Below are positions 1-16,683 of a stretch of DNA of 64,000 bases, in pieces. Numbering within the stretch: position 1 is the stretch's first letter; every line of letters begins with the position of its first letter. Below the pieces are notes generated by a model. The model was not told the origin of the DNA and searched no databases. It saw only the letters and a list, made by a program, of their open reading frames with translations. Made by a program: the position numbers and the translations under genes. Origin of the DNA: Deltaproteobacteria bacterium (GTDB taxonomy: Bacteria > SAR324 > XYD2-FULL-50-16); the NCBI GenBank assembly GCA_018657625.1, contig JABHWU010000124.1:15277-79276 (forward strand), read 5' to 3'.

Positions 1-714
1 CCAGTTCGAATAGAGTTCTATATGATTTTTTTTGAGAAATGTTAAGTCTTTCTTTATTTTTGGAAGAAAGTCTTTCAATATAATTGTTTCGGGAATATAC
101 CAATAAGGATTTAAAACGATGTAAAGGATTTTTTCACTAAAAAGCGGGGTTTGACGATAATCTTTTCCAACAATAACACGCATTTCCTGAATAATATGTG
201 ACTTTTCGATAACACTCAGTTTTAAATCAGCGATATTAACCAGAATATGCTGAGGGTCGCTAGTCCCATTTTTCCAAAGCTTTCGGTTTAAATTACTTTT
301 GATCTGTTTTACCCGGTGCTCTACTGAAACATTTAAAGCTTCCTGAGTCATTCTGCCAACCAGTCCATCAACTAAGAGACCATGACGGTGTTGAAAACGC
401 TTTACCGCTTTAAGTAGATTCGCATCGAATTTATTATTTGATTTTGACTCTGGATTTAAATCTCCAGATAGCAGAAGCCTTTTTCGAAGTATAGAGATTC
501 GTTTTAAATCAGAACTTCCTTGTCGCAAAGTTTTTCCGTTATCAAGCAGAGGCCAGCCACCTTTCCGAGAAATATTTTGATATTTTTTCAAAACTAGTTG
601 AAGCTTGAATTGAAAGGGATATTTGGAAGAGCTTGCGGAAGTATCATTGGGTATAAACAAAATAGAGAAATTTAAAAAAGTGAGGAAGCTAAGAATAAAA
701 ACTAGATAATGCAT
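1..714 (-). CDS. L,D-transpeptidase (YkuD/YcbB family) with putative peptidoglycan-binding domain; partial, C-terminus beyond window start
   Basis: Reverse-strand reading from ATG at 714 gives MHYLVFILSF... with a PG_binding_1-like segment (LLKAVKRFQHRHGLLVDGLVGRMTQEAL) and a YcbB/YkuD-like segment (MRVIVGKDYRQTPLFSEKILYIVLNPYWYIPETI). No stop before the window edge. Not in the supplied ORF track because it is incomplete. Confidence 0.55.
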   Translation of the reverse strand, partial: MHYLVFILSFLTFLNFSILFIPNDTSASSSKYPFQFKLQLVLKKYQNISRKGGWPLLDNGKTLRQGSSDLKRISILRKRLLLSGDLNPESKSNNKFDANLLKAVKRFQHRHGLLVDGLVGRMTQEALNVSVEHRVKQIKSNLNRKLWKNGTSDPQHILVNIADLKLSVIEKSHIIQEMRVIVGKDYRQTPLFSEKILYIVLNPYWYIPETIILKDFLPKIKKDLTFLKKNHIELYSNW

Positions 715-1392
715 ATTTTCCTTTAAAATTAATAAAAACATGAATCGAGTATTAAGACTATTCTACAGTTTAAAGCAGAGTGATTTATTGTGTCTAAATT
801 CCTAACATCTCCTTCTTAATCACTAAAGTAGAATATTATGGTAATAGATGATTTCATCAACTAATAAGAAAATTAGGTAATATTTAACTTAAATTTATGG
901 AATAAAACTAATTCTATAAAACAAATAGGATATCGCTTTAAGTCAATTTAACTTTTATTATAGCGGTTTTCCAAACTTGTCTCTCCATCGGGTCCCTGAT
1001 CACTGAATTTGCGACACTTTGAGCAAAGAACGAAGGGTGAATCCGATAATATGCTTCGACTTCGCTCAGCATACTGATAGGGGCAACTTATTCAAATTTC
1101 AGGAAAAGGAACTTTATAATAATGCCAGATATTTGTGAGGTCATTCATATTTTTCCAAAATTAGTTAAGAATGAACAAGTTAAGGTTGCTTTCAACATGA
1201 TTTAGAACAACAATGAAAGGTATCAAACTAAGAGATCTTTTTTTCATAGAATTCAAAGGAGATTTTTATTTTTTTATCAATTAACAATTATCATTTATCA
1301 TGGACTTAAAAAGAATCGGGAATATCAAGGGATCACTTCAGGCCAATGCCCCAAAAAGACCAAAGACCTCACAATTAATGCTGGGACACTAA

Positions 1393-3159
1393 ATGAACCA
1401 TCTTCGTTTCCTGTTAAGGTATATCCGAATCTATAAATTTCAATATTTTATCGGATTTGTATTTATTATTCTGACCAATTGGGTTTCTGTTAGTATCCCC
1501 AAATATCTGCAATTAAGTATCGATTTACTTTCGGAAAGTATCAGCGAGTTGCAGCATAGTCAGGATAAATTGTTTGAATACCTGGGAGTTATGTTTTTAA
1601 TGGCCCTTAGTCTTATTATCATTCGCACACTATCACGGATATTCTTTTTTAATCCTGGACGCGCCATTGAATACCGCATAAAAAACGATCTTTTTGATAA
1701 ACTTAACCATCTGAAAAAAGACTATTACGATCAAAACCCGACGGGAGCCATTATCTCACGAATTCAAAATGATATTACCGGTGTTCGAATCATTTGTGGA
1801 TTTGGGATGATGCAAATTTTCAACATTCTTAGCGCACTGTCATTTACGCCTTATAAAATGTGGGAACTGTCACCACGATTAACATTATATTGTGTAATAC
1901 CGATCATCGTGATCTTTATTTTTGTCCGATTTGGAATGTATTATGTGGTGAAGCATAGTCGAAAACGAATGAAAAATTTGCAGGATCTATCCAGTTTTAT
2001 TATCTCCGCTTTGGCAGGAATTGATATCATCAAAGGGTTTGATTTAGGGTCATGGTCAAGAAATGAATTCGGAGCGATTAACAAACTGCTGTTAAATATG
2101 TCTCTTCGGATCTCCTTTGTACGCTCCTTCTTAATGCCGCTGCTTCACAATCTGGAAAATGTGTTAAAAGCACTCATCCTGTTTGTTGGTGGGATGTTCG
2201 TGATTCAAGAGGATTTCACCATCGGTGAACTGACTGCCTTTATTGCTTACGCTGGTTTATTAACCTTGCCTATTATGGGCTTGGGTTGGCTAACAACAAT
2301 GATTCAACAAGGACTGGTCGGATTGGCTAGCTTAGAAACGATTCTTTCTCAAAAGATCCCTAAAGAGAGTATTAAAGAACTCCCCCCTGACATCTCATCC
2401 CACCTGTTTAATGAAGGCATTGAAGTAAAAAATCTTAATTTTCGCCATTCTGATACAGAGGACGATATTCTAAAAAACATCAGCTTTAAGATTAAACCAA
2501 ATCAAACAGTGGGGATTCTAGGTAAAATCGGCTCGGGAAAGACAACCTTAATCAATTGTTTAAACGCATATCTGCCCGTCAATGACAATAGTGTCTTCAT
2601 AGGTGGGCGTGATATTAATACTCTTGCTTTTTCCGATATCAACCGAATCATTCGTACTGTTAGCCAGGATGTATTTTTATTTTCTGATACCATTGAAAAC
2701 AATATTAAATTTGGCATCAATGACGAAATTAATCATGCCCATAACCCAATGGAAAAGGTGGTTTATGAAAGTGCCTTGCAAGAAGAGATTGATCGCTTTC
2801 CTGACCATATGGAGACAATTGTCGGCGAAAAAGGGATCATGCTTTCCGGAGGGCAGAAACAACGAATCAGTTTAGCAAGGTCCATGATGCAGCCCTGCGA
2901 TCTATTAATCCTGGATAATGTTTTATCGGCAGTGGATTATGAAACAGAGCGATTTCTGCTAAAACAAATTTTAAAACGGGAAACAGCAAAAAGCTTGTTA
3001 ATTATTTCTCATCGGGTTCAGGCTCTGGCAGGTGCTGATGAAATTCTGGTTTTTGAAAATGGAACCATTACCGAGAGAGGTACCCATCAACAACTAATTC
3101 ATCGTTCTGGTTTGTATCAGGAAACCTGGCGATTACAAAATAAATTGGATGAAAAGTAA
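1393..3159 (+). CDS. ABC exporter, fused permease/ATPase subunit (half of a heterodimer; Walker B catalytic Glu replaced by Asn)
   Basis: N-terminal 6-TM domain. Walker A GKIGSGKTT, signature LSGGQKQRISLARS, Walker B LLILDNVLSAVD (D-N instead of D-E), H-loop SHR. Overlaps the next ABC gene by 11 bp. Confidence 0.85.
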   Translation: MNHLRFLLRYIRIYKFQYFIGFVFIILTNWVSVSIPKYLQLSIDLLSESISELQHSQDKLFEYLGVMFLMALSLIIIRTLSRIFFFNPGRAIEYRIKNDLFDKLNHLKKDYYDQNPTGAIISRIQNDITGVRIICGFGMMQIFNILSALSFTPYKMWELSPRLTLYCVIPIIVIFIFVRFGMYYVVKHSRKRMKNLQDLSSFIISALAGIDIIKGFDLGSWSRNEFGAINKLLLNMSLRISFVRSFLMPLLHNLENVLKALILFVGGMFVIQEDFTIGELTAFIAYAGLLTLPIMGLGWLTTMIQQGLVGLASLETILSQKIPKESIKELPPDISSHLFNEGIEVKNLNFRHSDTEDDILKNISFKIKPNQTVGILGKIGSGKTTLINCLNAYLPVNDNSVFIGGRDINTLAFSDINRIIRTVSQDVFLFSDTIENNIKFGINDEINHAHNPMEKVVYESALQEEIDRFPDHMETIVGEKGIMLSGGQKQRISLARSMMQPCDLLILDNVLSAVDYETERFLLKQILKRETAKSLLIISHRVQALAGADEILVFENGTITERGTHQQLIHRSGLYQETWRLQNKLDEK

Positions 3160-4924
3160 GCGCTTTAAAAACAGCAATGATCTTCAATTACTCGGACGAT
3201 TTTTTACTTATCTCCGTCCCTATTCGCGATATGTCGTTGGTGCCCTGATGGCAATTCCTTTTGCTACAGGCGCGACCTTATTGGTTCCCTGGCTTATTGT
3301 TACCATTGTGGATGACTACATCACTAAATTTAATCAAACCGGGCTAATGTTGTTGGTCGGTTTTTTCGCGAGTGCTGTTTTGCTAGGGTATGTTGCTGAT
3401 GCAATTTATACCTACACTCTGCAAAAAGCTGGACAGTTAGCCATTGCGGATATGAGGCAAGATCTGTTTCGCCATAGCCTAACACTACCAAGAACTTACT
3501 TTGATAAGCACCCTATTGGTATTACACTCAGTCGTTTAACCAGTGACATGGAAGCCATTGGGGAATCATTAGCGATTGGTGTGCTATCACTAGTAACAGA
3601 CCTCATTAAGACAATTGCGCTGTTTGTTTTTCTCTTTTATTTAAGTTGGAAACTGGCCCTGGTGATCTTACTATTATTTCCCGTCATTTATTTTGTTGTC
3701 AGCCTTCTTAGAAAAAAGTTGCGCTACTATTTTAACCTGAGTCGTGAATCATTGGCTTCAGCAACAGCCTTCCTTCAGGAATGCTTAAATGGTATCAAAA
3801 CAATCCAATTATATGCCGCGGAAAAAAAGGTATTAAAACAATTTGAGCAAAAAAATAGAAAATTCTTTCATTCTCAAACCCGATCCAATATTTATGATTC
3901 CACCTTATTCTCAATCATTGATGGTCTGACGTCGATGATGATGGTTCTCATTATCTGGTACGGTACCGATCAAATTTTTGAAGGAGCCATCACTATTGGA
4001 GTATTGATTGGATTCATCAATATTTTAAGTAAGATTTTTATACCAATTCGGGAATTTGCTCAACAGGTTGCGGTGATTCAACGTGCCTTGTCGGCGCTTC
4101 AGCACACCAATGATTTATTCTCCCAAACTTCTGAAGATGAGGATGATGGTGATGTTGATCCTAAAGTGGCAATAAAACTCAGCAGATTTCAGGAACTATG
4201 TTTTGAAAATGTCTCATTTAAATATAACGAAGATGGAATGACCGTCTTGAAAAATCTAACCTTTTGTTTAAAAAAAGGAGACCGCATTGCCATCGTGGGG
4301 GCTACGGGATCGGGAAAATCAACCATATTGAAACTGATCACAAAAGGGTATGGCAACTATGACGGTTCCATCACCATCAACGGCATAGAGTTATCAAGCA
4401 TTCCCAAAAAGACCTTATTAAGTTCTATCTCCATGATGCAACAGGATGTCTATCTCTTTAATACCGATTTGGCATTCAATATCGCACTAAATCGACCCCA
4501 TGTTGATCAGAAGAAAGTTCAGGAATCAGCAGAGTATGTTTATGCCCATGAATTTATCGACCAGTTACCGGATAAATATGGGTATCAAATCATAGATAAC
4601 GGAAAAAATCTGTCCGCTGGCCAAGCACAACTCATCTCATTTGCTCGTGCGATCGCGGGAGAAAGCGAACTAATTCTCCTGGATGAAGCAACTAGTTCTG
4701 TTGATTCGGTGACAGAAAACATGATTCAAAAGGCCATTGAGAAAATATTTCAGGAAAAAACAGTTATTGCCATTGCCCATCGCCTAAGTACGATTAGAAA
4801 TTCTGATATGATTCTGGTGATGAAAGAGGGAAGTATCATTGAAATGGGTGATCATGATAGCCTTCTGAATCAACAGGGTTATTATATTGAACTGCTGGAT
4901 AAAATGACCAAACAAAGCGCATAG
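3149..4924 (+). CDS. ABC exporter, fused permease/ATPase subunit (partner half; non-canonical LSAGQ signature)
   Basis: TM domain plus NBD: Walker A GATGSGKST, signature LSAGQAQLISFARA, Walker B ILLDEATSSVD, H-loop AHR. Translationally coupled to the upstream subunit. Confidence 0.85.
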   Translation: MKSKRFKNSNDLQLLGRFFTYLRPYSRYVVGALMAIPFATGATLLVPWLIVTIVDDYITKFNQTGLMLLVGFFASAVLLGYVADAIYTYTLQKAGQLAIADMRQDLFRHSLTLPRTYFDKHPIGITLSRLTSDMEAIGESLAIGVLSLVTDLIKTIALFVFLFYLSWKLALVILLLFPVIYFVVSLLRKKLRYYFNLSRESLASATAFLQECLNGIKTIQLYAAEKKVLKQFEQKNRKFFHSQTRSNIYDSTLFSIIDGLTSMMMVLIIWYGTDQIFEGAITIGVLIGFINILSKIFIPIREFAQQVAVIQRALSALQHTNDLFSQTSEDEDDGDVDPKVAIKLSRFQELCFENVSFKYNEDGMTVLKNLTFCLKKGDRIAIVGATGSGKSTILKLITKGYGNYDGSITINGIELSSIPKKTLLSSISMMQQDVYLFNTDLAFNIALNRPHVDQKKVQESAEYVYAHEFIDQLPDKYGYQIIDNGKNLSAGQAQLISFARAIAGESELILLDEATSSVDSVTENMIQKAIEKIFQEKTVIAIAHRLSTIRNSDMILVMKEGSIIEMGDHDSLLNQQGYYIELLDKMTKQSA

Positions 4925-4982
4925 TCACCAATTTTATTTCAAAATAAAATCGCAATATTGCAACTACGTCCCCCAGTAATAG

Positions 4983-5047
4983 AAAAAAATAAAACAGCTT
5001 AGGCTCAGCCATTCGAAATTTATAAACTGAGCCTGCACTATTTTTTA
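4983..5047. terminator. bidirectional rho-independent terminator between convergent genes
   Basis: Stem aggctcag (5001-5008) / ctgagcct (5027-5034) flanked by T-runs on both strands (ttttttac on +, A-run 4983-4997 giving U-run on -). Confidence 0.5.
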
Positions 5048-5049
5048 CT

Positions 5050-5511
5050 TTAATCTCCTTGTTGAGCCATATAATCATCATACATCGTTTCAAAATAGTT
5101 TTTATGTTTCGCCTCTTCCTGGGCCATTATTGAAAAAACATTCTTTTGCTCCGATTTTTCAGCTGCTTGTGCCATTTCCGTATATAATTTATAAGCTTTT
5201 TCTTCACGCTTCATTGCCACCCGTACAATATCGACATAAGACATTCCTGGGCGATATTCCATATCAACGAGATAATCACTTCGCTTGAGATTTTGAACCT
5301 TTTCAAAAAGGTAGCTTTCAATTTTAGCCTGATTGTCTTTCAGGTGTTTTAACATACGCTCATGCTTTCGTTCCTCCTGAGCATATTCTTTTAACATATT
5401 AACAATCCCCTTGGTACCCTCATTTTCAGCTGCATTTTCATAAAATTCTGCTGCCTCTATTTCCGATTTAATTGCAAAGTCAATGATATCGTTAGTTGAA
5501 GTAAATTCCAT
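5050..5511 (-). CDS. ferritin-like / rubrerythrin-family small protein
   Basis: 153 aa, highly helical, repeated E-rich motifs (EIEAAEFYENAAE ... AQEEAKHKNYFETMYDDY) typical of ferritin-like diiron four-helix bundles. Family assignment is approximate. Confidence 0.5.
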   Translation of the reverse strand: MEFTSTNDIIDFAIKSEIEAAEFYENAAENEGTKGIVNMLKEYAQEERKHERMLKHLKDNQAKIESYLFEKVQNLKRSDYLVDMEYRPGMSYVDIVRVAMKREEKAYKLYTEMAQAAEKSEQKNVFSIMAQEEAKHKNYFETMYDDYMAQQGD

Positions 5512-5805
5512 TTAATCTCCTTGGTATTTAACATTTTAAAAAAATTACAGTAGCTTGGATGACTTAGTTTAGTTAACAAACTGCCGGTTTTAATGATTTG
5601 ATTTCCGTAATTTACTTTTTTCCAACTCTGGGATCGGAAACCGAATCAATAGTTAGATTAATTGTCCTAACAGTACTTTATCTTAGTTTGCGAATCATTA
5701 ATTAAGTAGTGAATAGAATTTTAATATAGAATGGGATTAGTTTATAATCAAATATAAAATTTGTCTACTGCGATAGATCGGTTTTCAGAGCTAGCTGATT
5801 CAACT

Positions 5806-6828
5806 TTAAAAACGGTCAATACCAATTAATTCGATGTCAAAAATCAGTGTCGCATTTTTAGGAATCAGTTTCCCCACTCTTCTGGTACCATAAGCCAACT
5901 CCGGTGGGATGAAAAATCTCCATTTCCCGCCTTCTTTCATCAATAAGATTCCCTCCTTCCAACCTTTTATAACACTATTTAAATTGATTAGTGTTGCTTG
6001 CTGATCCTGATAGGAGTTGCTAACTTCTGTGCCATCGGTTAATCGTCCGATATAATGGACATAAACATAATCATACGCTACCGGCTGACTACCGGAGCCC
6101 TGTTTAATGATTTTATATTGTAAACCACTGGATAAAACAATCACATTTTCCTGGTTTTTGTTTTGCTCCAGAAAATCAGACCCTGATTGACTCAATTTCT
6201 CTTTTTGCTGTAATTCAGTAATTTTTTGATTAATAAATTCGGTCCTAAAATTGTAATCGATACCAACTGCAACAAAATACCCTATGAACAATGACAACAG
6301 ACCCAACATTACAAATCTACGATCAGTAAAAATCACAGATTCTTTTATAAAGTTACCGATATTACCTAATATCTCTTTAAAGGGGACCGGTAATGCCATC
6401 TTATGAGAAATCAAAAGACCTACCACGCAGAGGTAAAGAATCGAACACATAATACAAACTTTCCCTAACATTAAAACAGATGCCCCGGCCTCAAACAGAG
6501 AAAACAAAAACATCAATATTGTGATCAGATAGGAAAAAGACAGGTAAATATTTAAACGTTTGGGATCAAAAACCTTTGCGAAAAGCAGTAACATCAATAA
6601 AACTGAATATCCGAAAACACCCAAAGTTGCGACAGGAAACTGACCGAGCATAGCGAAGGAACTTAATGCCACTTCGTCACAATCTAAAACCGCATTAACA
6701 GAGCAAAAACTTGCAACTTCCGGATGTAAAATATTGACCAAATAGTGGTGATATACCAAATAAGCGGAATCAATCGTACCACCTAGAAAAAGAAAGAGCG
6801 TCAAGAAAAACCAGTTTTTTTTAATCAT
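5806..6828 (-). CDS. vitamin K epoxide reductase (VKOR) domain fused to FKBP-type peptidyl-prolyl cis-trans isomerase
   Basis: N-terminal multi-TM region with loop Cys pair (FCSVNAVLDCDE) and in-membrane CxxC (KVCIMCSILY), as in VKOR. C-terminal segment (VHYIGRLTDGTEVSNS...KGWKEGILLMKEGGKWRFFIPPELAYG...ATLIFDIELIGI) is a clear FKBP domain. Confidence 0.7.
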   Translation of the reverse strand: MIKKNWFFLTLFLFLGGTIDSAYLVYHHYLVNILHPEVASFCSVNAVLDCDEVALSSFAMLGQFPVATLGVFGYSVLLMLLLFAKVFDPKRLNIYLSFSYLITILMFLFSLFEAGASVLMLGKVCIMCSILYLCVVGLLISHKMALPVPFKEILGNIGNFIKESVIFTDRRFVMLGLLSLFIGYFVAVGIDYNFRTEFINQKITELQQKEKLSQSGSDFLEQNKNQENVIVLSSGLQYKIIKQGSGSQPVAYDYVYVHYIGRLTDGTEVSNSYQDQQATLINLNSVIKGWKEGILLMKEGGKWRFFIPPELAYGTRRVGKLIPKNATLIFDIELIGIDRF

Positions 6829-7129
6829 TTTTTATAATTTCGTTTTTAATCACAATTGTCATTGTAACAACTTAGAAGATAAGTGTTTATTATGTTAGGT
6901 ATTTACACAAAATCAGTGGACACGTAATATATCTTCTAATTTAAAAGAATCCATAAATTAAGAAATTGATAAGATTCTAAAGACGATGAGGTTAATTTGA
7001 AAAGGGTTTAATCAATATTTTTTGATGCAGATTGGCAAAATCTTTTATTTAAGGCTTATCAAATTAAAAAAAAACACCTAATGAAGTAATTTAAATTCAA
7101 TACTGTCCTAACCACTAAAAAAGCTTATT

Positions 7130-8005
7130 ATGCAGCAGTCAGATACAATCCAACGATTTATTTTTGATCAAAAAGATATCAGAGGTGAAATTGTCCACCT
7201 AAATAAAAGTTACCAAAAAGCCATCCATGGGCATGAATATCCAGCTGTCATTCAGACACTATTAGCGGATGCTTTAGTATCAGTAACGCTGCTATCTGCC
7301 ACCTTAAAATTTAAAGGTCGGCTGAGTATTCAGTTACAAGGTGGAGATACCATTTCTCTGTTACTGGTTCAGATCACTCATAATCAGGAAATGCGTGCTA
7401 CCATAAAGTGGGAGGGGGATACAGAAAACAAAGCGTTAACTGAATTAATTAAAAATGCAAATCTGGTGATAACCATTGAGCCGGAGGAAGGTCAGCGTTA
7501 TCAGGGAATAGTACCATTAAAAGGGGATCGTTTTAATCAGTTTATCGAAAAATACTTTGAACAATCTGAACAGTTACCCACCAGAATCTGGTTAGTTTCT
7601 GATCAACAGCACACGGCGGGTTTATTACTGCAAAGACTACCGGAAAAAGAAAATCAAATTCGGTCAAATGAACAGGATTGGGAGCATTTTACAATTTTAA
7701 CAGAAACACTTAAAGACACAGAATTACTTAATTTACCAAATAGTGAATTATTATACCGATTATATCACAGTGAAACCGTTAAAATTTTTAAGCCACAAAC
7801 AGTTCAATATGTTTGCGGCTGTTCCAGGGAAAAATGTGAAAATGCAATTATCAGCTTAGGTCCACAAGAAATTGAAAGCATCAAAAAAGAAGAAGAATTT
7901 ATCGAAATTAAATGTGACTTTTGCAATAAAAATTATCATTTCGATATTGTTGACTTAACTCGCTTACAGAACTTGTCAGAGGAAAAATTCCAAAAAAATT
8001 CCTGA
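7130..8005 (+). CDS. hslO: Hsp33 redox-regulated chaperone
   Basis: 291 aa. C-terminal zinc-centre motif CGCS...C-x27-CDFC. N-terminal Hsp33 core similarity. Confidence 0.85.
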   Translation: MQQSDTIQRFIFDQKDIRGEIVHLNKSYQKAIHGHEYPAVIQTLLADALVSVTLLSATLKFKGRLSIQLQGGDTISLLLVQITHNQEMRATIKWEGDTENKALTELIKNANLVITIEPEEGQRYQGIVPLKGDRFNQFIEKYFEQSEQLPTRIWLVSDQQHTAGLLLQRLPEKENQIRSNEQDWEHFTILTETLKDTELLNLPNSELLYRLYHSETVKIFKPQTVQYVCGCSREKCENAIISLGPQEIESIKKEEEFIEIKCDFCNKNYHFDIVDLTRLQNLSEEKFQKNS

Positions 8006-8008
8006 ATT

Positions 8009-9130
8009 TTAAATGATAAAGCCAAGTTTCTTTAATTGTTCTTCTACCTTTTCAGAGCCATTGGATAATCTCACCTTGTAATTGTTGAATTCCCGTCGGA
8101 TCGGATAATCTCCGCGTTGTTTTTCAAAAGTACTCGTTGATTGACGTAGTTTTTCATCATCTTTTTCAATGGGATAAGTATAATGAACGGCTTCAAACAA
8201 AATCTGTTCATCTGGCTTTCCCTTACCATCTATCGATATTTCCATTGCATGAGGTACTGGAATATCAGGACATTTCCATTTATTCAAATCCAAATTAAAA
8301 AACTGACTTAATGCTCTAACACTGTTTTCTGTTCCATTGACTTTTCCATCTGCAGAATATCCGGCAATGTGTGGCGTGGTAATTTTACATAAATCCATTA
8401 ATTCCAGATCAATGGTTGGCTCATTTTCCCATACATCCAGAACTGCTCCTTGAACCTGGTTTAAGTTCAAGGCAGATTTTAAAACCTGATTATCGATTAC
8501 CTCACCCCGACAGGTACTCATTAAAAAAACTTTTGAAGAAACCTTATCAATAAAGGATTGATCTACCAAATGATAAGTTTGATCAACCCCTTCCCGGTTC
8601 AAAGGTACATGAAAACAGATAAAATCTGCATGAGCGATGATTTCTTTCAGAGAAACAAAAGGTCCACTATTTTCTTGACGGGCTCTGGGAGGGTCATTCA
8701 ATAAAACATTCATACCCAGAATTTCGGCAATTTTAGCAGTTTTACTACCAGTATTACCCACACCAACCACACCAAGTGTTTTTCCTTTTAGCTCAATCTG
8801 ATCATGAATATGTAGATAGAGTAAGGCTGCTGTCATGTATTGTTCAACTGATTTTGCGTTACATCCCGGTGCATTAACCCATTTAATATTATGAGCGCTA
8901 CAATAATCCTTATCAATATGGTCATATCCAATTGTTGCTGTCGCAATAAATTTTACCGAACTATTCTTCAATAATTGTTTATTGCATTTAGTACGGGTTC
9001 TAATTATGATGGCATCAGTATCTTTAACCATTTCATTATCTATCGCTCCACCCGGAGCATAAATCACTTTGCCATAGATTTCTAAAATCCCTCTGATAAA
9101 AGGAATTTTATCATCGACTACTATTTTCAT
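8009..9130 (-). CDS. pdxB: erythronate-4-phosphate dehydrogenase (D-2-hydroxyacid dehydrogenase family)
   Basis: 373 aa, near-collinear with E. coli PdxB: MKIVVD..., TATIGYDHID, APGCNA, GVVGVGNTG, DPPRA, HVPL, CRGEVIDNQ, LDVWENEP, HIAGYS. Confidence 0.75.
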   Translation of the reverse strand: MKIVVDDKIPFIRGILEIYGKVIYAPGGAIDNEMVKDTDAIIIRTRTKCNKQLLKNSSVKFIATATIGYDHIDKDYCSAHNIKWVNAPGCNAKSVEQYMTAALLYLHIHDQIELKGKTLGVVGVGNTGSKTAKIAEILGMNVLLNDPPRARQENSGPFVSLKEIIAHADFICFHVPLNREGVDQTYHLVDQSFIDKVSSKVFLMSTCRGEVIDNQVLKSALNLNQVQGAVLDVWENEPTIDLELMDLCKITTPHIAGYSADGKVNGTENSVRALSQFFNLDLNKWKCPDIPVPHAMEISIDGKGKPDEQILFEAVHYTYPIEKDDEKLRQSTSTFEKQRGDYPIRREFNNYKVRLSNGSEKVEEQLKKLGFII

Positions 9131-9263
9131 TTAGAGGCTCCTGTTTACGACGTACTAACTCCAGTAAGCATTCAAATCGCTAGTACTAGTCAAATAAAAT
9201 AGAAAATTTTCAGATTTTGTTGGATGGAATGTCTGCCAAAAACAAGCAGACAATGGGCGGTTA

Positions 9264-9518
9264 TTATATATCCAGATAGGCCATATCGAAATTAGCGATT
9301 GGGATCTCTCCCTCTTGTGCTCGTTGAGTACCCTGATCAAGCTCAAAATCGCTGATAACGGCCTGATGCATTTCGACGGCTAAAGTTTTATCACACATTT
9401 TATAAGCTAAAGTCTTTCCCTGATTTAGCCTTAGTACATTATAGTTACTTCTATCTACTGTTGCTGTATTTTTGGTTTTAAATAAGTCTGCTAATAGTAA
9501 ATCTTTTATATCCTGCAT
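9264..9518 (-). CDS. hypothetical small protein (84 aa), coding status uncertain
   Basis: Only ORF of reasonable composition in a 650 bp intergenic gap. No recognisable motifs. Confidence 0.25.
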   Translation of the reverse strand: MQDIKDLLLADLFKTKNTATVDRSNYNVLRLNQGKTLAYKMCDKTLAVEMHQAVISDFELDQGTQRAQEGEIPIANFDMAYLDI

Positions 9519-9783
9519 TTCTCCCCTGTAAGTTAAAAATTCACTAAACTCTAATAGTATGACGTCATATCGTCAAGATTCATATTAGGATCAGTAAAAG
9601 GCAAGTCCAGTCGCCGTTTCAAGCTGATAAGAGTTTTTAGAACGTAAATAAATAACAAGTAATCTTATTAATGACCTTAATTTTCAAACGCTACTGACTT
9701 ATCAATAACACAAGAGATAAGCAGAGTCACGAAATAAATTTTGATTGTGTAAAAAAACTTTGACACAAATTGAAATTATTATT

Positions 9784-10248
9784 TTATTTTTTAGATTCTT
9801 TCCCGGTCATTTGATTGACAACAATTTTTACCAATGTCACACCATTTAATGCATTCTCTCCGTATTCAAACTGATTTTCAGAATACTGTTTCATAATCAG
9901 GTCCATACCTTTTATCTTTTCCTGCTTGTCTAAAACAATCTCCGCCTTTCCCGAAGCAATGATACTTTCATAAGTAGCACTCCAGTTACAAGCTTTCCCC
10001 TTAGGATCAGATACAATGCCAATTTCATCATCAATTTCAATACACACTAAGGGATTTTTTTGAATGATTTCCAGTTTCTTGCCCTCATTGGCACTATGAA
10101 AATAAAATACATGATTTAAATATCCAAAATTTAAAGGAATAATATAGGGTTGATTCCCATCGCATAATGCCAGTCGCATTACTTTTGCTTTTTTAATAAT
10201 GCTTTCTATCACTGACAGGTCTTTAATTTCTTTTTCATTTCTACGCAT
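9784..10248 (-). CDS. pyridoxamine 5'-phosphate oxidase-like FMN-binding family protein
   Basis: 154 aa with PNPOx-like split-barrel pattern (AKVMRLALCDGNQPYIIPLNFGY...VFYFHSANEGKK). Confidence 0.65.
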   Translation of the reverse strand: MRRNEKEIKDLSVIESIIKKAKVMRLALCDGNQPYIIPLNFGYLNHVFYFHSANEGKKLEIIQKNPLVCIEIDDEIGIVSDPKGKACNWSATYESIIASGKAEIVLDKQEKIKGMDLIMKQYSENQFEYGENALNGVTLVKIVVNQMTGKESKK

Positions 10249-10635
10249 TTCTTTAACTCCATTTCAGATTGTGGATTAGTGGTATCGATTTCACCCATCC
10301 ATAAATATCAATTACATTCCCATATTATTTACTAACAATAACTGTCATCGTCATTTAAACTCTTAGGTTCCAAAAATAGTGATAAAATGGAATCAGGAAT
10401 TCAAAACCGTTTTCGATATCGTTGATTAAGCGATACTGATAAAGCTGTTTTCCGACTTTTTGATTACAGAAAATATAAATACTCTTCAAACCATTTCTTC
10501 TTCTTATTATTTTGCAGGTCCGCCAAAACTTTGTGGTCTTTTCACTTAAAGGATTTTTCTTCATTTCCAAGCCGTAGTGTCAGGGAATGTTTTTTTATAC
10601 AAATTATTGACAAAGAATCAATTTACAAAAGTGCT

Positions 10636-11610
10636 TTAAGTATTGTAAATATCATTTAAATCAGTTTGATAGCGAACAGTTTTCCAGGAAGATTCATTGA
10701 CCTTTAATTGAAAAATATCTGGCCGGGCATAGTGACCGGTAACATCAAAATCCAATTTTGCTTTCGCAATCTGATTCAAATCCAACTCTGCCCGTAAAAT
10801 ACCTGCTTCATCAAAAAGAGGACCTGCCAGAACCTCTCCCTGGGGAGAAATAATCGCGCTGCCACCGCGACACATTTGTTCATCCATCTGCGATAACTCA
10901 TCAATCATTGGTAATTCTTCAGGGTACATCGATTTGGTGACATATTGATTACAACCCAAAACAAAACATCTCCCTTCACAGGCAATATGTTTAAGCGTTG
11001 CCTGCCAGTTATCTCTGGAGTCTGCTGTGGGGGCAAGATATATCTGAACTCCTTTCCCATAAATAGCCATTCTGGCCAATGGCATATAATTTTCCCAACA
11101 AATTAACCCACCCACTTTACCAAATTCTGTATTTACCACGGTTAATGTACTACCGTCGCCTTCACCCCAAATCAATCTTTCACTACCTGTTGGTTTTAAT
11201 TTCCGATGAATACCGGCAACTGTCCCTGTTTTATTGATGTATATTTGTGAACAATAGAGGGTATTTTCTGAAGTCTGATCTTTTTCAATAATCCCCACAC
11301 TTAGAAAAACACTATTTTGCCGGGCAATTTTACATAATTGTTTAACTTCATCGCTTTCCAGCGATATTGAATTTTCCCAATATTTTAACCAAAGTTCCCT
11401 TCCAATTTCCTTCCGATTGCCGACAACCATACCAAATCCTAACCCCCTAGGGTAAGCCGGTATAAATGCTTCCGGGAATAAAACCAGATCGGTATTCTGA
11501 CAAGCCGCTTTTTGGGTCAGATCCCCTATTTTTTCTATGGTTTGTGATAAGTGAAACAGTACGGGTGCATCCTGAACAACAGAAACATTAACCGGTGATA
11601 TTGGTTTCAA
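10636..11610 (-). CDS. nitrilase / carbon-nitrogen hydrolase family protein
   Basis: Catalytic triad context FPEAF (Glu), K in RKLKPT, CWENYMP (Cys), typical of nitrilase superfamily branch 1. Confidence 0.8.
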   Translation of the reverse strand: MKPISPVNVSVVQDAPVLFHLSQTIEKIGDLTQKAACQNTDLVLFPEAFIPAYPRGLGFGMVVGNRKEIGRELWLKYWENSISLESDEVKQLCKIARQNSVFLSVGIIEKDQTSENTLYCSQIYINKTGTVAGIHRKLKPTGSERLIWGEGDGSTLTVVNTEFGKVGGLICWENYMPLARMAIYGKGVQIYLAPTADSRDNWQATLKHIACEGRCFVLGCNQYVTKSMYPEELPMIDELSQMDEQMCRGGSAIISPQGEVLAGPLFDEAGILRAELDLNQIAKAKLDFDVTGHYARPDIFQLKVNESSWKTVRYQTDLNDIYNT

Positions 11611-11624
11611 AATAGCTCCTGATT

Positions 11625-12692
11625 TTAGTAATTTAACATTTCATCAATGATTATAAAAATTTGCTGATTGCCCTGATCCAAAGACTGTTGATTTATTTGT
11701 TGAATAATTTGATCTTTATTTTGAATAATTTCCTGAATTTTTTCAATAATGGAAATTTCAGAAAGACTCTCTTCTTCAACAACAACAGCCAGCCCTTGTT
11801 TAGCAAAGGACTTTGCATTCAGTATCTGATCCCCCCGGCTGGCTTTTTTAGAAAGCGGAATCAATAAGGATGGTTTTTTAACAGCCAGCAGTTCAAAAAG
11901 GATGGTAGCTCCGGCCCGGGATATTACCAGGTCCGCCATGGCGAAAAAATCCGGAAGCTCCTGATCAACATATTCAAATTGTCGGTAATCAACCCTATCC
12001 ATCAATGATTCGTCTAAACCATTCTGGCCACAAATATGGCAAATCGAAAATTCACTAGATAAAGTATCAATATTTTCCCGAATCAAATCGTTGATCACTT
12101 TTGAGCCTAAACTACCGCCAACAATTAGTAATACAGGTTTATCTGACTTAAAATTACAAATTTTCTTACCCTGGGAGGCATTGCCATTTTGAATCACAGA
12201 CCGAACGGGAATACCGGTATGGACAGCTTTCGACGAATTAATATATTTAATCGTTTCAGGAAAACTATAACAAATCTTTTTGGCAAAGGGTGCTGACAGA
12301 CGGTTGGTTAATCCGGGAGTCAGGTCAGATTCATGGATGATCACCGGAATTCGTAACAACCATGAGGCCCAAACCACCGGACAGGAGACAAAACCACCTT
12401 TGCTGAATACTACCCCGGGTTTAATTTTCAGCAATAGAAAAATCGATTTTAAAACTCCCAATACTATTTTAAAAACATCTGTAAAATTTTTGAAATCAAA
12501 ATACCGGCGAAGTTTACCTGCTGAAATATGATGATAGTAATCCACTACCCCTTCCACCAGTTTCTGCTCAATACCATTAATTTGCCCAATATAATGAACC
12601 TCCAACCCTTTCGATTTTAATTCAGGTATAATGGCCAAGTTTGGCGTGACATGACCAGCTGTTCCACCACCGGTCAGAACAATTCGTTTCAT
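11625..12692 (-). CDS. murG: undecaprenyldiphospho-muramoylpentapeptide beta-N-acetylglucosaminyltransferase
   Basis: N-terminal GGGTAGHVTP motif, GT28 fold length (355 aa), C-terminal nucleotide-sugar binding region. Confidence 0.85.
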   Translation of the reverse strand: MKRIVLTGGGTAGHVTPNLAIIPELKSKGLEVHYIGQINGIEQKLVEGVVDYYHHISAGKLRRYFDFKNFTDVFKIVLGVLKSIFLLLKIKPGVVFSKGGFVSCPVVWASWLLRIPVIIHESDLTPGLTNRLSAPFAKKICYSFPETIKYINSSKAVHTGIPVRSVIQNGNASQGKKICNFKSDKPVLLIVGGSLGSKVINDLIRENIDTLSSEFSICHICGQNGLDESLMDRVDYRQFEYVDQELPDFFAMADLVISRAGATILFELLAVKKPSLLIPLSKKASRGDQILNAKSFAKQGLAVVVEEESLSEISIIEKIQEIIQNKDQIIQQINQQSLDQGNQQIFIIIDEMLNY

Positions 12693-12698
12693 GTTTTT

Positions 12699-13529
12699 TT
12701 AATTTGCAGATGAATTTTTCAGCAGGTATTGCATTGCTGTTATATCAACACCATTTTGGTAATTAAATTTCATCGGACAAACGGCAACATGTTTCTTCTC
12801 TGCTAAAACATAAATATCTGAAGTATGAGAAAGTTGTTCTTTATCATAAACAATTCTCACCCGAATATCGCTGACTTTAGAATTCAAGGTCGGAGCGTCA
12901 AAATATGTTTCATAATAAGGTTGATCCGCAACTTCTGTAAATTCACACGCCGTCTTTTCATTTGCATCTGCAGGGACATCTATTTTTAATATATCGATAT
13001 CCTTCGGAAACCCTTGTGATAAAACCTGAATGGCAAACCGGTTTAAGAAATAAATGGAGGGCCGCCAGTCCTGCTTCGTATATTCGAAATGGCTGTCTGT
13101 TTTTGTTTGCTTCGAAACCGCTAGGGCAGGTGTACCCAGACTAGAAGCTTCAAAAGCAGCGCCTACTGTTCCTGATACACTAACATTTGACCCAATATTT
13201 TCACCGTAATTAATACCGGAAACAGCCAGATCAGGTAATTGGCCCTTAAACAGGATATTATAAGCCAGCTGAACAATTAAAGATGGTGAACAATCACAGG
13301 TATAGGCTTCAATTTTATTACCCTCAATATCATATGGCACAGGTTCAAGTTTAGCATCAGTAGCACCGACATGACTGCGGCTCATAGCAGTTTGCTGCCT
13401 CGAAGGGGCAGCCACCACGATACGTCCCAACCCCAAAACGCCCTGAATTGATGCCTTTAAGCCAGGGGAGTGGATACCATCATCGTTAGTTAAAAAAATA
13501 AGTGGTTTATTCATAAATTTTTTACTCAT
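12699..13529 (-). CDS. surE: 5'/3'-nucleotidase SurE
   Basis: Starts with LTNDDGIHSPGL, the SurE signature. 276 aa. Confidence 0.85.
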   Translation of the reverse strand: MSKKFMNKPLIFLTNDDGIHSPGLKASIQGVLGLGRIVVAAPSRQQTAMSRSHVGATDAKLEPVPYDIEGNKIEAYTCDCSPSLIVQLAYNILFKGQLPDLAVSGINYGENIGSNVSVSGTVGAAFEASSLGTPALAVSKQTKTDSHFEYTKQDWRPSIYFLNRFAIQVLSQGFPKDIDILKIDVPADANEKTACEFTEVADQPYYETYFDAPTLNSKVSDIRVRIVYDKEQLSHTSDIYVLAEKKHVAVCPMKFNYQNGVDITAMQYLLKNSSAN

Positions 13530-13724
13530 TATAATATTTTGTATAAGATCTTTTTTAATTGAATTCTAATCTTCTAGCAAGGATTAACCTTGTACATCAA
13601 AATCTAATCATAAATATTAATTATTATGGTTTGTATTTTTTTTTATTTTACCAGATGATTAATTCCAAAATAAAAATTTATTAAAACCTCCCAATCGATA
13701 TAGTCATTTACTATTAAGTAAACC

Positions 13725-14609
13725 ATGCAAAATCAAACACTTGGTATTATATTTTCATTAAGTGCAGCCTTTTTTTGGTCCACCTCTGTGATTATGTACA
13801 GAAAAAGCGGTGACGGGTTTTCTCCGCTTTCCCTGAATTTTTTTAAGAGTTTAATTGCAATTATTCTCCTGCTTCCAACTTTATATCTTAAAGAAGTAGA
13901 TTTTATCCCGGATAATTCAATCAATGACTGGTTATTAATAATCATCTCAGGAATACTTGGAACTGCTTTAGCTGATTCGCTATTTTTTTCATCTTTAAAT
14001 CGTATTGGCGCCAGTTTAAATGCTATTATTGGTTGTTCTTACTTACCATGTATCATCATATTTTCTTACATCTTTTTAGACGAAGCACTGGGTTTCAAAG
14101 GATTAATCGGTGGTGCTTTAGTACTTTCCGCGCTATTTGTTTCTACCTGGCATGGAAAACGCCAAAATATAGACCGTAAAGACCTTATCGTTGGGATTAT
14201 TTACGGTTTAGCCGGTATTTTGACAATGGTCGTTGGCATAATCATGATTAAGGGCGTTTTATTAAGATCTGATGTTGTCTGGGTAACTTTGATCAGAACC
14301 GGCGCAGCATTATTAGGGCTGTTGGTTACTATTATACTTCACCCGCAGCGTAAAAAACTATGGCTGGAATTGCAACCATCTCTAATCTGGAAGTGGGCGG
14401 TACCCGCCTCTGTCGGTAACTACCTGGCACTGTTATTTTGGCTGGCAGGCATGAAATATACAATGGTTAGTCTGGCCGCAATTTTAAATCAGTTATCAGC
14501 CATTTTAATTTTTATATTGGCGGCGATTTTCCTGAAGGAAAAAATAACAACCGCTAAATCAATTGCCGTCTTTCTGGCTTTATCAGGCGCAATTATCGCT
14601 ACCCGATAA
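13725..14609 (+). CDS. EamA/DMT-family transporter
   Basis: 294 aa, about 10 TM helices, duplicated EamA-like halves. Confidence 0.75.
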   Translation: MQNQTLGIIFSLSAAFFWSTSVIMYRKSGDGFSPLSLNFFKSLIAIILLLPTLYLKEVDFIPDNSINDWLLIIISGILGTALADSLFFSSLNRIGASLNAIIGCSYLPCIIIFSYIFLDEALGFKGLIGGALVLSALFVSTWHGKRQNIDRKDLIVGIIYGLAGILTMVVGIIMIKGVLLRSDVVWVTLIRTGAALLGLLVTIILHPQRKKLWLELQPSLIWKWAVPASVGNYLALLFWLAGMKYTMVSLAAILNQLSAILIFILAAIFLKEKITTAKSIAVFLALSGAIIATR

Positions 14610-16461: not shown

Positions 16462-16683
16462 TAATTTTAAAATTTTTTTCATTAATGCAGATTCAATAAC
16501 TTTCGTTCAGTTTGATTTTATATACTTTGTTTTAAAACAATCGGAGTGCCGTTTTTTCACTCTCATTTAGATTTATCTATTTGTCGCAAAAAAATACAAT
16601 TATATTTACCATCTTAAACCCTCAGTGAATTCGGACATCTGTAGAACAAGTCGAATTTATCCATTAAAAAATAAACAGGTGCG

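What the first reader, a model, noticed from the sequence alone, without database searches (positions are those of the whole stretch)
5806..6828. VKOR domain fused to an FKBP-type prolyl isomerase
The N-terminal membrane domain carries both VKOR cysteine pairs: loop C-x8-C and in-helix CIMC. The C-terminal domain is an unmistakable FKBP fold. Bacterial VKORs are usually fused to thioredoxin-like partners, which they oxidise. A fusion to a PPIase would physically couple quinone-driven disulfide generation with proline isomerisation in the periplasm, a DsbB-plus-FkpA in one polypeptide. It lies next to divergently transcribed hslO (redox chaperone) and a ferritin-like gene. This architecture is not one I can place among described VKOR fusions.
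Basis: partly seen in the sequence, partly recalled or inferred. Interest (0 to 1): 0.6.

Follow-up and report, generated by a model that had tools for sequence, protein, structure and literature searches.

The report
Membrane disulfide enzyme fused to FKBP
This gene from an uncultured bacterium joins a membrane enzyme that makes protein disulfide bonds (VKOR) to a proline-isomerase-type folding helper (FKBP) where its relatives carry a DsbA domain, a rare, real and apparently undescribed variant whose function is untested.

Summary
Window 5806..6828 (minus strand) encodes a 340-aa protein. Pfam calls VKOR (residues 10-140), an FKBP_N tail (200-240) and FKBP_C (248-335), all above the curated cut-offs. 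The loop cysteines are C42-x7-C50 (not x8), and CIMC is at 125-128. The FKBP half has no cysteine. Five TM helices, a conserved positive-inside bias and homology to VKOR-DsbA fusions place the FKBP module in the periplasm, on a helix continuous with TM5 (AlphaFold2 pLDDT 92).

It is not an assembly artefact. The identical protein occurs on at least 23 contigs, and about six lineages (40-90% identity) keep the architecture and all four redox cysteines. The architecture is rare: 4 of the 150 nearest VKOR cluster representatives carry FKBP, against 103 with DsbA. The fusions form one clade nested among VKOR-DsbA proteins, which suggests a single DsbA-to-FKBP replacement.

Caveats: the FKBP polar pair D37/R42 is lost in this protein's branch, so it may be more chaperone than isomerase. 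No DsbA-type partner lies nearby. The hslO adjacency is only partly conserved, and the rubrerythrin neighbour is lineage-specific.

Most likely function: a quinone-linked disulfide generator with a tethered Mip-type client-holding module. I rate it a new variant of a known kind, of moderate interest.

The parts
5806..6828 (-). Complete ORF of 340 aa plus stop: the VKOR-FKBP fusion protein
   Evidence: It is identical to P0001 (NCBI MAG hypothetical protein HOD92_13105), which was read on 23 contigs from ENA, JGI and NCBI assemblies.
6409..6801 (-). VKOR domain (residues 10-140): the four-helix core TM1-TM4 with the periplasmic cap loop
   Evidence: Pfam PF07884 scores 57.3 bits against a cut-off of 27.5. 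A profile of the VKOR halves hits Synechococcus VKOR 4NV6/3KP9 and human VKORC1 6WV3. The AF2 model of residues 1-198 (pLDDT 90, pTM 0.84) has only VKOR-family structures as its top 14 PDB matches.
6679..6705 (-). Loop cysteine pair C42-x7-C50, within the invariant 'SFC...DCD' motif in the TM1-TM2 periplasmic loop
   Evidence: C42 and C50 are invariant in FKBP-fused, DsbA-fused and standalone relatives. Both codons were verified in the DNA.
6445..6456 (-). Active-site CXXC (C125-I-M-C128) at the start of TM4
   Evidence: invariant across all relatives aligned. The DNA reads tgt att atg tgt on the minus strand.
6160..6321 (-). TM5 (about residues 170-192) continuing without a break into a periplasmic stalk helix (193-223)
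   Evidence: The AF2 model has a single helix H170-223. A hydropathy segment covers 170-192. The cytoplasmic loop before it, residues 143-172, holds 5 K/R.
6109..6231 (-). FKBP_N tail (residues 200-240): only the C-terminal part of the Mip/FkpA stalk helix. The dimerisation helices are absent.
   Evidence: Pfam PF01346 scores 35.1 bits and matches profile positions 55-97 of 97.
5824..6087 (-). FKBP_C domain (residues 248-335), Mip/FkpA type, without cysteines
   Evidence: Pfam PF00254 scores 91.1 bits. Foldseek matches truncated Legionella Mip 8BK5/8BJE with TM 0.94-0.96, rmsd 1.1-1.2 A and 41-42% identity.
6829..7129 (.). Intergenic region of 301 bp shared with the divergent hslO gene; it presumably holds both promoters
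   Evidence: No motif is conserved across lineages, and promoter-like sites are not enriched over shuffles.
7130..8005 (+). Context: hslO (Hsp33), divergently transcribed; adjacency only partly conserved in the family
   Evidence: Pfam HSP33 scores 254.6 bits. It is adjacent in the loci of P0001, P0002, P0004, P0009 and P0010, and absent in those of P0006, P0011 and P0209.

Best explanation
The gene encodes an inner-membrane, two-module envelope protein-folding factor. The N-terminal module is a catalytically intact five-TM VKOR. It takes electrons from periplasmic thiols through the loop pair C42/C50, passes them to C125/C128 in TM4, and from there to a membrane quinone, so it generates disulfides de novo. 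In nearly all of its nearest relatives, TM5 leads into a covalently tethered DsbA-like domain. In this small clade that domain was replaced once by a Mip/FkpA-type FKBP module, held in the periplasm on a stalk helix of about 30 residues that is continuous with TM5. The FKBP module has no cysteine, so the VKOR most likely re-oxidises a separately encoded thioredoxin-fold carrier (DsbA-like), as standalone VKORs do. The tethered FKBP module binds proline-containing, still-unfolded exported proteins and holds them at the membrane where oxidant is regenerated. It would act mainly as a chaperone, with weakened isomerase activity in this protein's branch. Shown here: the domain identities, conservation of the four redox cysteines, the topology indicators, the domain swap relative to VKOR-DsbA relatives, the single clade, and the rarity. 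Inferred: quinone reduction, the identity of the thiol partner, PPIase or chaperone activity, and any cooperation between the two halves.
For: Both domains score above the curated cut-offs. The VKOR fold is confirmed by profile-to-PDB search and by Foldseek on the AF2 model. The FKBP module with its stalk superposes on Legionella Mip at about 1.1 A. C42, C50, C125 and C128, and also S56, are invariant across 9-11 fusion-family members at 40-90% identity. The cysteines are also invariant across 57 VKOR relatives. The positive-inside bias is 8-13 K/R inside against 2-4 outside in all 9 fusions. The nearest non-FKBP relatives carry a DsbA/Thioredoxin_4 domain right after TM5, in the same position. 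VKOR-DsbA fusions of this layout complement E. coli dsbA dsbB mutants (PMC12453122). Of the 150 nearest representatives among 1.84 billion, 103 are DsbA-fused, 4 are FKBP-fused and 43 have no recognised partner domain. In an NJ tree the FKBP fusions form one clade inside the VKOR-DsbA radiation. The same protein occurs on 23 or more independently assembled contigs. The AF2 full-length model has pLDDT 92.4, with helix 170-223 running continuously from the membrane into the FKBP module. The hydrophobic FKBP pocket residues Y26, V55, I56, W59, Y82, I91 and F99 are retained. From established knowledge: PPIases accelerate disulfide-coupled folding catalysed by PDI (Schonbrunner and Schmid 1992), and FkpA's chaperone activity does not depend on its isomerase activity.
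Against: No DsbA-like ORF is in the 64-kb window or within 10 kb of any fusion gene in other lineages, so the proposed separate partner is unidentified, and complete genomes could not be searched. The D37/R42 pair, which is present in all five free Mip-type FKBPs aligned here, is S/D in this protein and N/S, G/S or H/G in sister lineages. F36 is V. Isomerase activity may therefore be weak or absent. A stalk of about 30 residues could hold the FKBP domain tens of angstroms from the VKOR cap, which argues against tight mechanical coupling. All members come from uncultured organisms, and nothing has been tested experimentally. The tree is NJ without bootstrap support.
Confidence: 0.55

Rival explanations
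1. The two modules are co-anchored but functionally independent. The VKOR half works as an ordinary DsbB-like recycler of a soluble DsbA. The FKBP half is simply a periplasmic chaperone that uses the VKOR as its membrane anchor in place of a signal peptide, lipid anchor or dimerisation domain. The fusion would bring co-expression and membrane localisation only, with no cooperation on shared substrates.
For: The FKBP module lacks cysteines. It sits on a long stalk rather than docked on the VKOR cap. The stalk sequence between TM5 and G216 is poorly conserved. From general knowledge, membrane-anchored periplasmic PPIase chaperones without redox function exist (PpiD, PrsA).
Against: The fusion has been kept across about six lineages down to 40% identity, with both halves under constraint. 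The FKBP module occupies exactly the slot of the substrate-handling DsbA domain in sister proteins, which suggests functional replacement rather than random anchoring.
Confidence: 0.25
2. DsbA-independent, one-polypeptide oxidase. The FKBP module has taken over DsbA's substrate-recruiting role, and the VKOR loop cysteines C42/C50 oxidise FKBP-bound client proteins directly, without any thioredoxin-fold intermediary.
For: The FKBP module replaces DsbA at the same position in a clade descended from VKOR-DsbA fusions. The loop cysteines stay invariant although the tethered Trx partner is gone. No DsbA-like gene was found in the window or near any family member.
Against: From established knowledge, in all characterised VKOR and DsbB systems the loop cysteines react with a Trx-fold partner, not with substrates. 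Standalone five-TM VKORs that are neighbours of this clade in the tree also lack a fused partner and presumably use a separate DsbA. L014 has a DsbA-like ORF about 8.5 kb from its standalone VKOR. The stalk probably places the FKBP pocket far from the cap loop. The absence of DsbA was tested on only 64 kb plus short flanks.
Confidence: 0.12
3. The VKOR half is a redox-dead membrane anchor or sensor, and the protein is essentially a membrane-tethered FKBP.
For: None directly. NCBIfam scores for VKOR equivalogs are below their cut-offs (32.9 bits against 120).
Against: All four catalytic cysteines, S56 and the SFC...DCD motif are invariant across the family and its DsbA-fused relatives. Pfam VKOR scores twice its gathering cut-off. 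The fold matches solved VKORs.
Confidence: 0.05
4. Artefact: a chimeric assembly, or a frameshift that joins two adjacent genes.
For: Two family entries are aberrant. P0012 is P0006 with a 24-aa in-frame deletion that removes TM5. P0210 is P0209 with a frameshifted FKBP domain.
Against: The identical 340-aa protein is found on 23 contigs from independent ENA, JGI and NCBI assemblies. Full-length orthologs exist in about six lineages with different flanking genes. The junction lies within one continuous, confidently modelled helix.
Confidence: 0.01

Closest known systems
Bacterial VKOR-DsbA/thioredoxin fusions (Synechococcus sp. VKOR, PDB 3KP9/4NV2/4NV5/4NV6; Clostridium sp. VKOR-DsbA; Arabidopsis LTO1)
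   Same: It has the same VKOR core with a loop Cys pair and a CXXC in TM4, and the same layout of a fifth TM helix that carries a C-terminal domain to the periplasmic side. These proteins are the nearest sequence relatives of the VKOR half.
   Different: The C-terminal domain here is an FKBP fold without any cysteine, in place of a Trx/DsbA fold with CXXC. The intramolecular electron relay from partner domain to VKOR loop that defines those fusions cannot operate.
Standalone bacterial VKOR working with a separately encoded DsbA (Mycobacterium tuberculosis Rv2968c with Rv2969c; C. difficile VKOR)
   Same: The VKOR has no fused redox partner and presumably needs a separate Trx-fold protein. Five-TM standalone VKORs of 210-237 aa from Desulfobacteraceae are neighbours of the fusion clade in the tree.
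   Different: Those have no periplasmic folding-helper domain. In M. tuberculosis (PMC3792642 title and abstract) and in L023 here the dsbA gene is adjacent, whereas no dsbA is near any of the fusion genes.
Periplasmic Mip/FkpA/FklB-type FKBPs (Legionella Mip 1FD9/8BJC, E. coli FkpA 1Q6U, P. aeruginosa FkbA 7DEK)
   Same: The FKBP domain plus the C-terminal half of the stalk helix match at 41-42% identity and 1.1-1.2 A rmsd to truncated Mip. The hydrophobic pocket is conserved.
   Different: There is no signal peptide and no N-terminal dimerisation helices, since only profile positions 55-97 of FKBP_N match. The stalk grows out of a membrane helix. The D37/R42 equivalents are lost in this protein's branch.
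E. coli DsbB-DsbA pathway
   Same: The proposed role of the VKOR half is analogous: quinone-linked regeneration of periplasmic disulfide oxidant (established knowledge; PMC11208910 abstract).
   Different: DsbB belongs to an unrelated sequence family.
Arabidopsis LTO1 (VKOR-Trx) oxidising the lumenal FKBP13
   Same: This is the only described biological link between a VKOR and an FKBP that I found. The Trx-like domain of AtVKOR promotes disulfide formation in FKBP13 in vitro (PMC4400859).
   Different: In that case the FKBP is a separate, disulfide-containing substrate of the VKOR system. Here the FKBP is fused and has no cysteine, so it cannot be a redox substrate.
Membrane-anchored periplasmic or extracytoplasmic PPIase chaperones (PpiD, PrsA)
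   Same: These also tether a PPIase-fold chaperone module to the outer face of the cytoplasmic membrane (my own knowledge, not tested here).
   Different: They have parvulin-type folds with a single-TM or lipid anchor, and no redox enzyme serves as the anchor.

Membership tests
VKOR family (Pfam PF07884) | The profile HMM score is above the curated gathering cut-off | tested here: met
   57.3 bits against 27.5, E 2.3e-15, residues 10-140 covering profile positions 3-131 of 134.
VKOR family (Pfam PF07884) | A four-helix transmembrane bundle with a periplasmic or lumenal cap loop between TM1 and TM2 | tested here: met
   AF2 helices are 4-34, 66-87, 89-121 and 126-145, with a beta-hairpin and short helix at 43-55. 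The top 14 Foldseek PDB matches are all VKOR-family structures, with probability 0.99-1.00 and rmsd 2.9-3.6 A to human VKOR over about 150 columns.
VKOR family (Pfam PF07884) | An active-site CXXC at the periplasmic end of TM4 | tested here: met
   C125-I-M-C128 is invariant in 57 relatives.
VKOR family (Pfam PF07884) | A loop cysteine pair (CXnC) and a conserved Ser/Thr in the TM1-TM2 loop | tested here: met
   C42-x7-C50 is invariant, and S56 is invariant in the fusion family and at least 90% conserved in 150 relatives.
VKOR family (Pfam PF07884) | Quinone-dependent thiol oxidase or quinone reductase activity | not testable with these tools
   This needs dsbB complementation or in vitro quinone reduction.
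VKOR-thioredoxin/DsbA fusion proteins (Synechococcus type) | A C-terminal periplasmic Trx-fold domain with a redox-active CXXC after TM5 | tested here: not met
   There is no Trx or DSBA Pfam hit and no cysteine after residue 134. Sister proteins do have Thioredoxin_4/DSBA domains at about 220-410.
FKBP-type PPIase (Pfam PF00254) | The profile score is above the cut-off and the FKBP fold is present | tested here: met
   91.1 bits against 21.1. TM-score to truncated LpMip is 0.94-0.96 at rmsd 1.1-1.2 A.
FKBP-type PPIase (Pfam PF00254) | A complete set of active-site residues (FKBP12 Y26, F36, D37, R42, F46, V55, I56, W59, Y82, F99) | tested here: inconclusive
   Y26, V55, I56, W59, Y82 and F99 are kept. 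F36 is V, D37 is S, R42 is D and F46 is T in the window protein. From memory, the Mip D142L mutant, at the D37-equivalent position, retains about 5% activity (Wintermeyer et al. 1995).
FKBP-type PPIase (Pfam PF00254) | Measurable peptidyl-prolyl isomerase activity | not testable with these tools
   This needs a protease-coupled peptide assay or an RCM-T1 refolding assay.
Mip/FkpA subfamily of periplasmic FKBPs | An N-terminal helical dimerisation domain (full FKBP_N) and a Sec signal peptide or lipobox | tested here: not met
   Only FKBP_N profile positions 55-97 of 97 match. The N-terminus is the VKOR membrane domain. NCBIfam FkpA and FklB models score 112-113 bits against cut-offs of 198-215.

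The most novel reading that the evidence does not exclude
The FKBP module has functionally replaced DsbA. It captures unfolded, proline-containing envelope proteins and presents them to the VKOR loop cysteines, which oxidise them directly. The result would be a thioredoxin-fold-independent, single-polypeptide pathway from substrate thiols to quinone. This would be the first natural disulfide-forming system in which substrate recognition is done by a prolyl-isomerase fold instead of a Trx fold.
Probability: 0.12. Interest if true: 0.8.

Novelty: new variant of a known kind. Interest (0 to 1): 0.5.

Why it matters
Disulfide formation and prolyl isomerisation are the two slow covalent or conformational steps of envelope protein folding. 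They are known to act together in vitro, but in bacteria they are normally carried out by separate proteins. Here evolution swapped the tethered DsbA of a VKOR-DsbA enzyme for an FKBP module and kept the result across several lineages. That is a natural experiment on whether co-localising the two activities is useful. It also bears on what VKOR loop cysteines can react with when no Trx domain is attached. It gives Dsb researchers a compact construct to test in the established E. coli dsbB and dsbA dsbB complementation systems. It is a rare protein from uncultured marine-type bacteria, so its practical reach is limited unless the DsbA-independent reading proves true.

Tried and rejected
1. Assembly or frameshift chimera: rejected. 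The protein occurs on 23 contigs, in about six lineages, and the junction is one continuous helix.

2. hslO and rubrerythrin as a conserved functional cluster: rejected as a general feature. hslO is adjacent in the P0001/2/4 and P0009/10 lineages. It is missing in P0006, P0011 and P0209, where pdxB abuts the fusion directly. This looks like eroding ancestral synteny pdxB-hslO-fusion. Rubrerythrin is found only in the P0001/P0002 lineage.

3. A shared regulatory motif in the hslO-fusion intergenic region: aligning four loci showed nothing conserved across lineages. Promoter and terminator consensus scans were not above shuffles.

No DsbA-like ORF lies within 10 kb of any fusion gene. A MauE plus Trx-like candidate at 48151..49020 was noted but not tested.

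5. A Pfam scan of all 150 nearest representatives exceeded the residue limit. I replaced it with local HMMs for the FKBP and DsbA domains.

7. The metagenome scan added only one more full-length fusion and one fragment at a contig end. The scan of species-representative genomes gave only one full-length fusion.

8. Rfam found no RNA families in the window.

9. Model coordinates are not exposed, so the distance and orientation between the FKBP pocket and the VKOR cap could not be measured.
Full report
OBSERVATION. Window 5806..6828 holds, on the minus strand, an uninterrupted ATG-to-stop ORF of 340 codons. Pfam finds three domains above their curated cut-offs:
- VKOR (PF07884): residues 10-140, 57.3 bits against 27.5.
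- The C-terminal part of FKBP_N (PF01346): residues 200-240, profile positions 55-97 of 97, 35.1 bits against 22.
- FKBP_C (PF00254): residues 248-335, 91.1 bits against 21.1.

NCBIfam gives sub-threshold matches to FklB and FkpA models and to a VKOR model, so the protein is a member of no curated equivalog. The protein has five cysteines, at 42, 50, 125, 128 and 134. The loop pair is C42-x7-C50 rather than C-x8-C. I checked both motifs against the DNA. The FKBP half has no cysteine. The neighbours are as described: hslO (Hsp33, 254.6 bits) is divergent at 7130..8005, and a rubrerythrin/ferritin-like gene lies at 5050..5511 on the same strand.

STRUCTURE AND TOPOLOGY. Hydropathy gives five hydrophobic segments. 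An AlphaFold2 model of the whole protein is confident, with mean pLDDT 92.4 and pTM 0.73. It shows helices 4-34, 66-87, 89-121 and 126-145, an amphipathic helix 150-166, and one uninterrupted helix 170-223. A beta-rich FKBP domain follows. TM5 (about 170-192) therefore continues as a stalk of about 30 residues that carries the FKBP domain.

The stalk plus FKBP module superposes on truncated Legionella Mip (8BK5, 8BJE) with TM 0.94-0.96, rmsd 1.1-1.2 A and 41-42% identity. By sequence it is closest to Mip, FkbA and FkpA.

A separate model of residues 1-198 has pLDDT 90 and pTM 0.84. Its top 14 PDB matches are exclusively VKOR-family structures: Takifugu VKOR-like, human VKORC1 and Synechococcus VKOR. 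Below them, match probability collapses. A profile of VKOR halves also finds 4NV6, 3KP9 and 6WV3 by sequence.

Two lines of evidence support topology:
- Lysine plus arginine counts are 10 in the N-terminus and the two predicted cytoplasmic loops, against 2 in the predicted periplasmic loops and the first 15 residues after TM5. The same bias (8-13 against 2-4) holds in all nine full-length family members.
- The closest relatives carry a DsbA domain after TM5 (see below). By established knowledge of the Synechococcus structure and of complementation by VKOR-DsbA fusions (PMC12453122), that position is on the same side as the loop cysteines.

IS IT REAL, AND HOW COMMON. The identical protein (P0001) is an NCBI MAG 'hypothetical protein' labelled Deltaproteobacteria bacterium. 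It was read on 23 contigs from ENA, JGI and NCBI assemblies. Full-length proteins with the same architecture exist at 88, 74, 73, 46, 45, 44, 41, 40 and 40% identity: P0002-4, P0006, P0007, P0209 and P0009-11. They sit in different gene neighbourhoods. This rules out a chimera.

The architecture is rare:
- A word-indexed search of 5.8 billion clusters with the VKOR half found only fusions and one standalone VKOR.
- A profile search found 92 VKORs, about 70 of them VKOR-DsbA fusions and 5 FKBP fusions.
- An exhaustive HMMER pass over 1.84 billion 50%-identity representatives gave 767 VKOR relatives. Of the best 150, 103 carry a DsbA-like domain, 4 carry FKBP and 43 carry neither.
- Scans of 185,579 species-representative genomes and of JGI metagenomes added one full-length locus each.

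No family member is flagged as present in UniRef. Two entries are aberrant: P0012 lacks 24 residues that include TM5, and P0210 is frameshifted in the FKBP domain.

EVOLUTIONARY ORIGIN. The nearest non-FKBP relatives of the VKOR half come from Bacteriovoracaceae, Leptospirales, Oligoflexia, Bdellovibrionota and Melainabacteria. They are proteins of 390-450 aa in which VKOR and TM5 are followed by a Thioredoxin_4/DSBA domain starting around residue 220-290. The Desulfobacteraceae relatives are five-TM standalone VKORs of 210-237 aa. The five-TM halves align in register, with S40-F41-C42, C50-D51, C125 and C128 invariant. In a midpoint-rooted NJ tree of VKOR domains, all FKBP fusions form one clade. 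That clade is nested among VKOR-DsbA fusions and lies next to the standalone forms (no bootstrap). The simplest reading is a single replacement of the tethered DsbA by an FKBP module, possibly through a standalone intermediate.

CONSERVATION OF CATALYTIC RESIDUES. All four VKOR redox cysteines and S56 are invariant in the fusion family. The cysteines are also invariant in 57 wider relatives. The VKOR half therefore looks active.

In the FKBP half, the hydrophobic pocket is kept: FKBP12 Y26, V55, I56, W59, Y82, I91 and F99, except that W59 is M in P0009/10. The polar pair D37/R42, present in all five free Mip-type FKBPs aligned here, is retained only in P0009-P0011. It is S/D in the window protein and its close relatives, and N/S, G/S and H/G in the sister lineages. 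Mutating the equivalent Asp in Mip strongly lowers PPIase activity (from memory, Wintermeyer et al. 1995). This protein's FKBP module may therefore be mainly a peptide-binding chaperone unit.

CONTEXT. hslO is divergently adjacent in the loci of P0001, P0002, P0004, P0009 and P0010. It is absent next to P0006 (Opp transporter and riboflavin genes), next to P0011 (Fur, a metal ABC transporter and a GAF histidine kinase) and next to P0209, where the pdxB-like dehydrogenase abuts the fusion directly. The hslO-bearing lineages lie on both sides of the fusion clade's root. The pattern fits an ancestral pdxB-hslO-fusion order that has eroded. It is a hint, and no more, of shared regulation with a redox-stress chaperone. 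No conserved intergenic motif was found. The rubrerythrin gene is specific to the P0001/P0002 lineage.

No DsbA-like ORF occurs in the window or within 10 kb of any fusion gene. L023, by contrast, shows the classic adjacent dsbA-vkor pair.

MECHANISM. Best explanation, confidence 0.55. The protein is a quinone-linked disulfide generator (C42/C50 to C125/C128 to quinone) that recycles a separately encoded Trx-fold oxidase. It has a Mip-type FKBP module tethered on a stalk, which holds proline-containing, unfolded exported proteins at the site of oxidant regeneration and perhaps isomerises them.

Shown: the domains, fold, cysteine conservation, topology indicators, domain swap and clade structure.

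Inferred: the enzymatic activities, the partner and any cooperation between the halves.

Rivals:
- Independent modules that merely share an anchor (0.25).
- Direct, DsbA-independent oxidation of FKBP-bound clients by the loop cysteines (0.12; this is the most novel reading not excluded).
- A redox-dead VKOR acting only as an anchor (0.05).
- An artefact (0.01).

COMPARISON WITH WHAT IS KNOWN. The protein works most like the VKOR-DsbA and standalone-VKOR branches of the bacterial Dsb machinery. It is a bona fide VKOR-family member: every sequence and fold criterion tested is met. It is not a member of the VKOR-Trx fusion class, because it has no Trx domain and no C-terminal CXXC. The C-terminal module is a bona fide FKBP fold of the Mip/FkpA type. 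It fails that subfamily's defining N-terminal dimerisation domain and signal peptide, and its active-site set is incomplete.

Literature searches found bacterial VKORs described only as standalone or fused to DsbA/Trx (PMC13486548 and PMC12453122). The searches found no mention of a VKOR-FKBP or VKOR-PPIase fusion. The only VKOR-FKBP link found is Arabidopsis LTO1 oxidising the disulfide-containing FKBP13 as a substrate (PMC4400859). That cannot apply to a cysteine-free FKBP.

VERDICT. The protein is a new variant of a known kind: a rare, conserved domain swap within VKOR fusion proteins, already in public databases but unnamed. Interest is moderate (0.5). It is a ready-made test case for coupling between oxidative folding and a PPIase-fold chaperone, with a small chance of revealing a Trx-independent oxidation route.

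Noticed in passing
window 48151..49020 (-), with cydA 51432..53012 (-), cydB 50287..51435 (-) and an unannotated ORF at 49030..49656 (-): This 289-aa protein has a MauE-family membrane domain (PF07291, residues 5-130, with a 'TCGCYGH' motif), a fifth hydrophobic segment, and a C-terminal region of about 120 aa reading 'YLLVFLNKHCAVCKEW'. That looks like a thioredoxin-fold CxxC active site, although no Trx profile hits it. The gene lies directly downstream of the cytochrome bd quinol oxidase genes. The layout of four TMs, a fifth TM and a Trx-like domain parallels VKOR-DsbA. It could be a second membrane thiol-redox module, or a candidate partner for the fusion.
   Followed up: partly
window 5824..6087 (-), FKBP domain; alignment: The FKBP12 D37/R42 equivalents are lost together in the branch that contains the window protein (S/D, N/S, G/S, H/G). 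They are retained (D/R) in the P0009-P0011 branch and in all five free Mip-type FKBPs compared. P0009/P0010 instead change W59 to M. This suggests relaxed or altered catalytic constraint after the fusion.
   Followed up: partly
P0012 versus P0006, and P0210 versus P0209: P0012 is identical to P0006 except for a 24-residue in-frame deletion that removes most of TM5, which would leave the FKBP module on the cytoplasmic side. P0210 equals P0209 up to residue about 235 and then frameshifts within the FKBP domain. Each is seen on a single short contig, so they may be assembly errors or decaying copies.
   Followed up: partly
window 8009..9130 (-) pdxB-like; L026:902-2029; L006, L007 and L027: A PdxB-like 2-hydroxyacid dehydrogenase (2-Hacid_dh plus DUF3410) is syntenic with the fusion in the P0001, P0002, P0004 and P0209 lineages. 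In P0209 it directly abuts the fusion with no hslO between them. This indicates an ancestral order pdxB-hslO-fusion.
   Followed up: partly
L027:13930-15474 (contig of P0002, 88% identical ortholog): About 6.5-8 kb downstream of the fusion gene lie split AhpC/Redoxin ORFs, a glutaredoxin-like ORF and carboxysome or microcompartment shell genes (CsoS1D_N, BMC). These hint at a chemoautotrophic lifestyle for this lineage.
   Followed up: no
window 53152..54408 (+): An ISL3-family transposase (DDE_Tnp_ISL3, 239.8 bits) sits immediately upstream of the cydAB cluster.
   Followed up: no
window 17904..20507 (-): A large 7TM receptor with extracellular 7TMR-HDED and intracellular HD hydrolase domains (867 aa) is encoded here.
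   Followed up: no
window 1393..4924 (+): Two tandem, slightly overlapping half-size ABC exporter genes (588 and 591 aa, ABC_membrane plus ABC_tran) probably encode a heterodimeric exporter. They lie convergent with the rubrerythrin-like gene.
   Followed up: no
window 1..64000: No Rfam family reaches its gathering score anywhere in the 64-kb window. The window's G+C content is 35.8%.
   Followed up: yes
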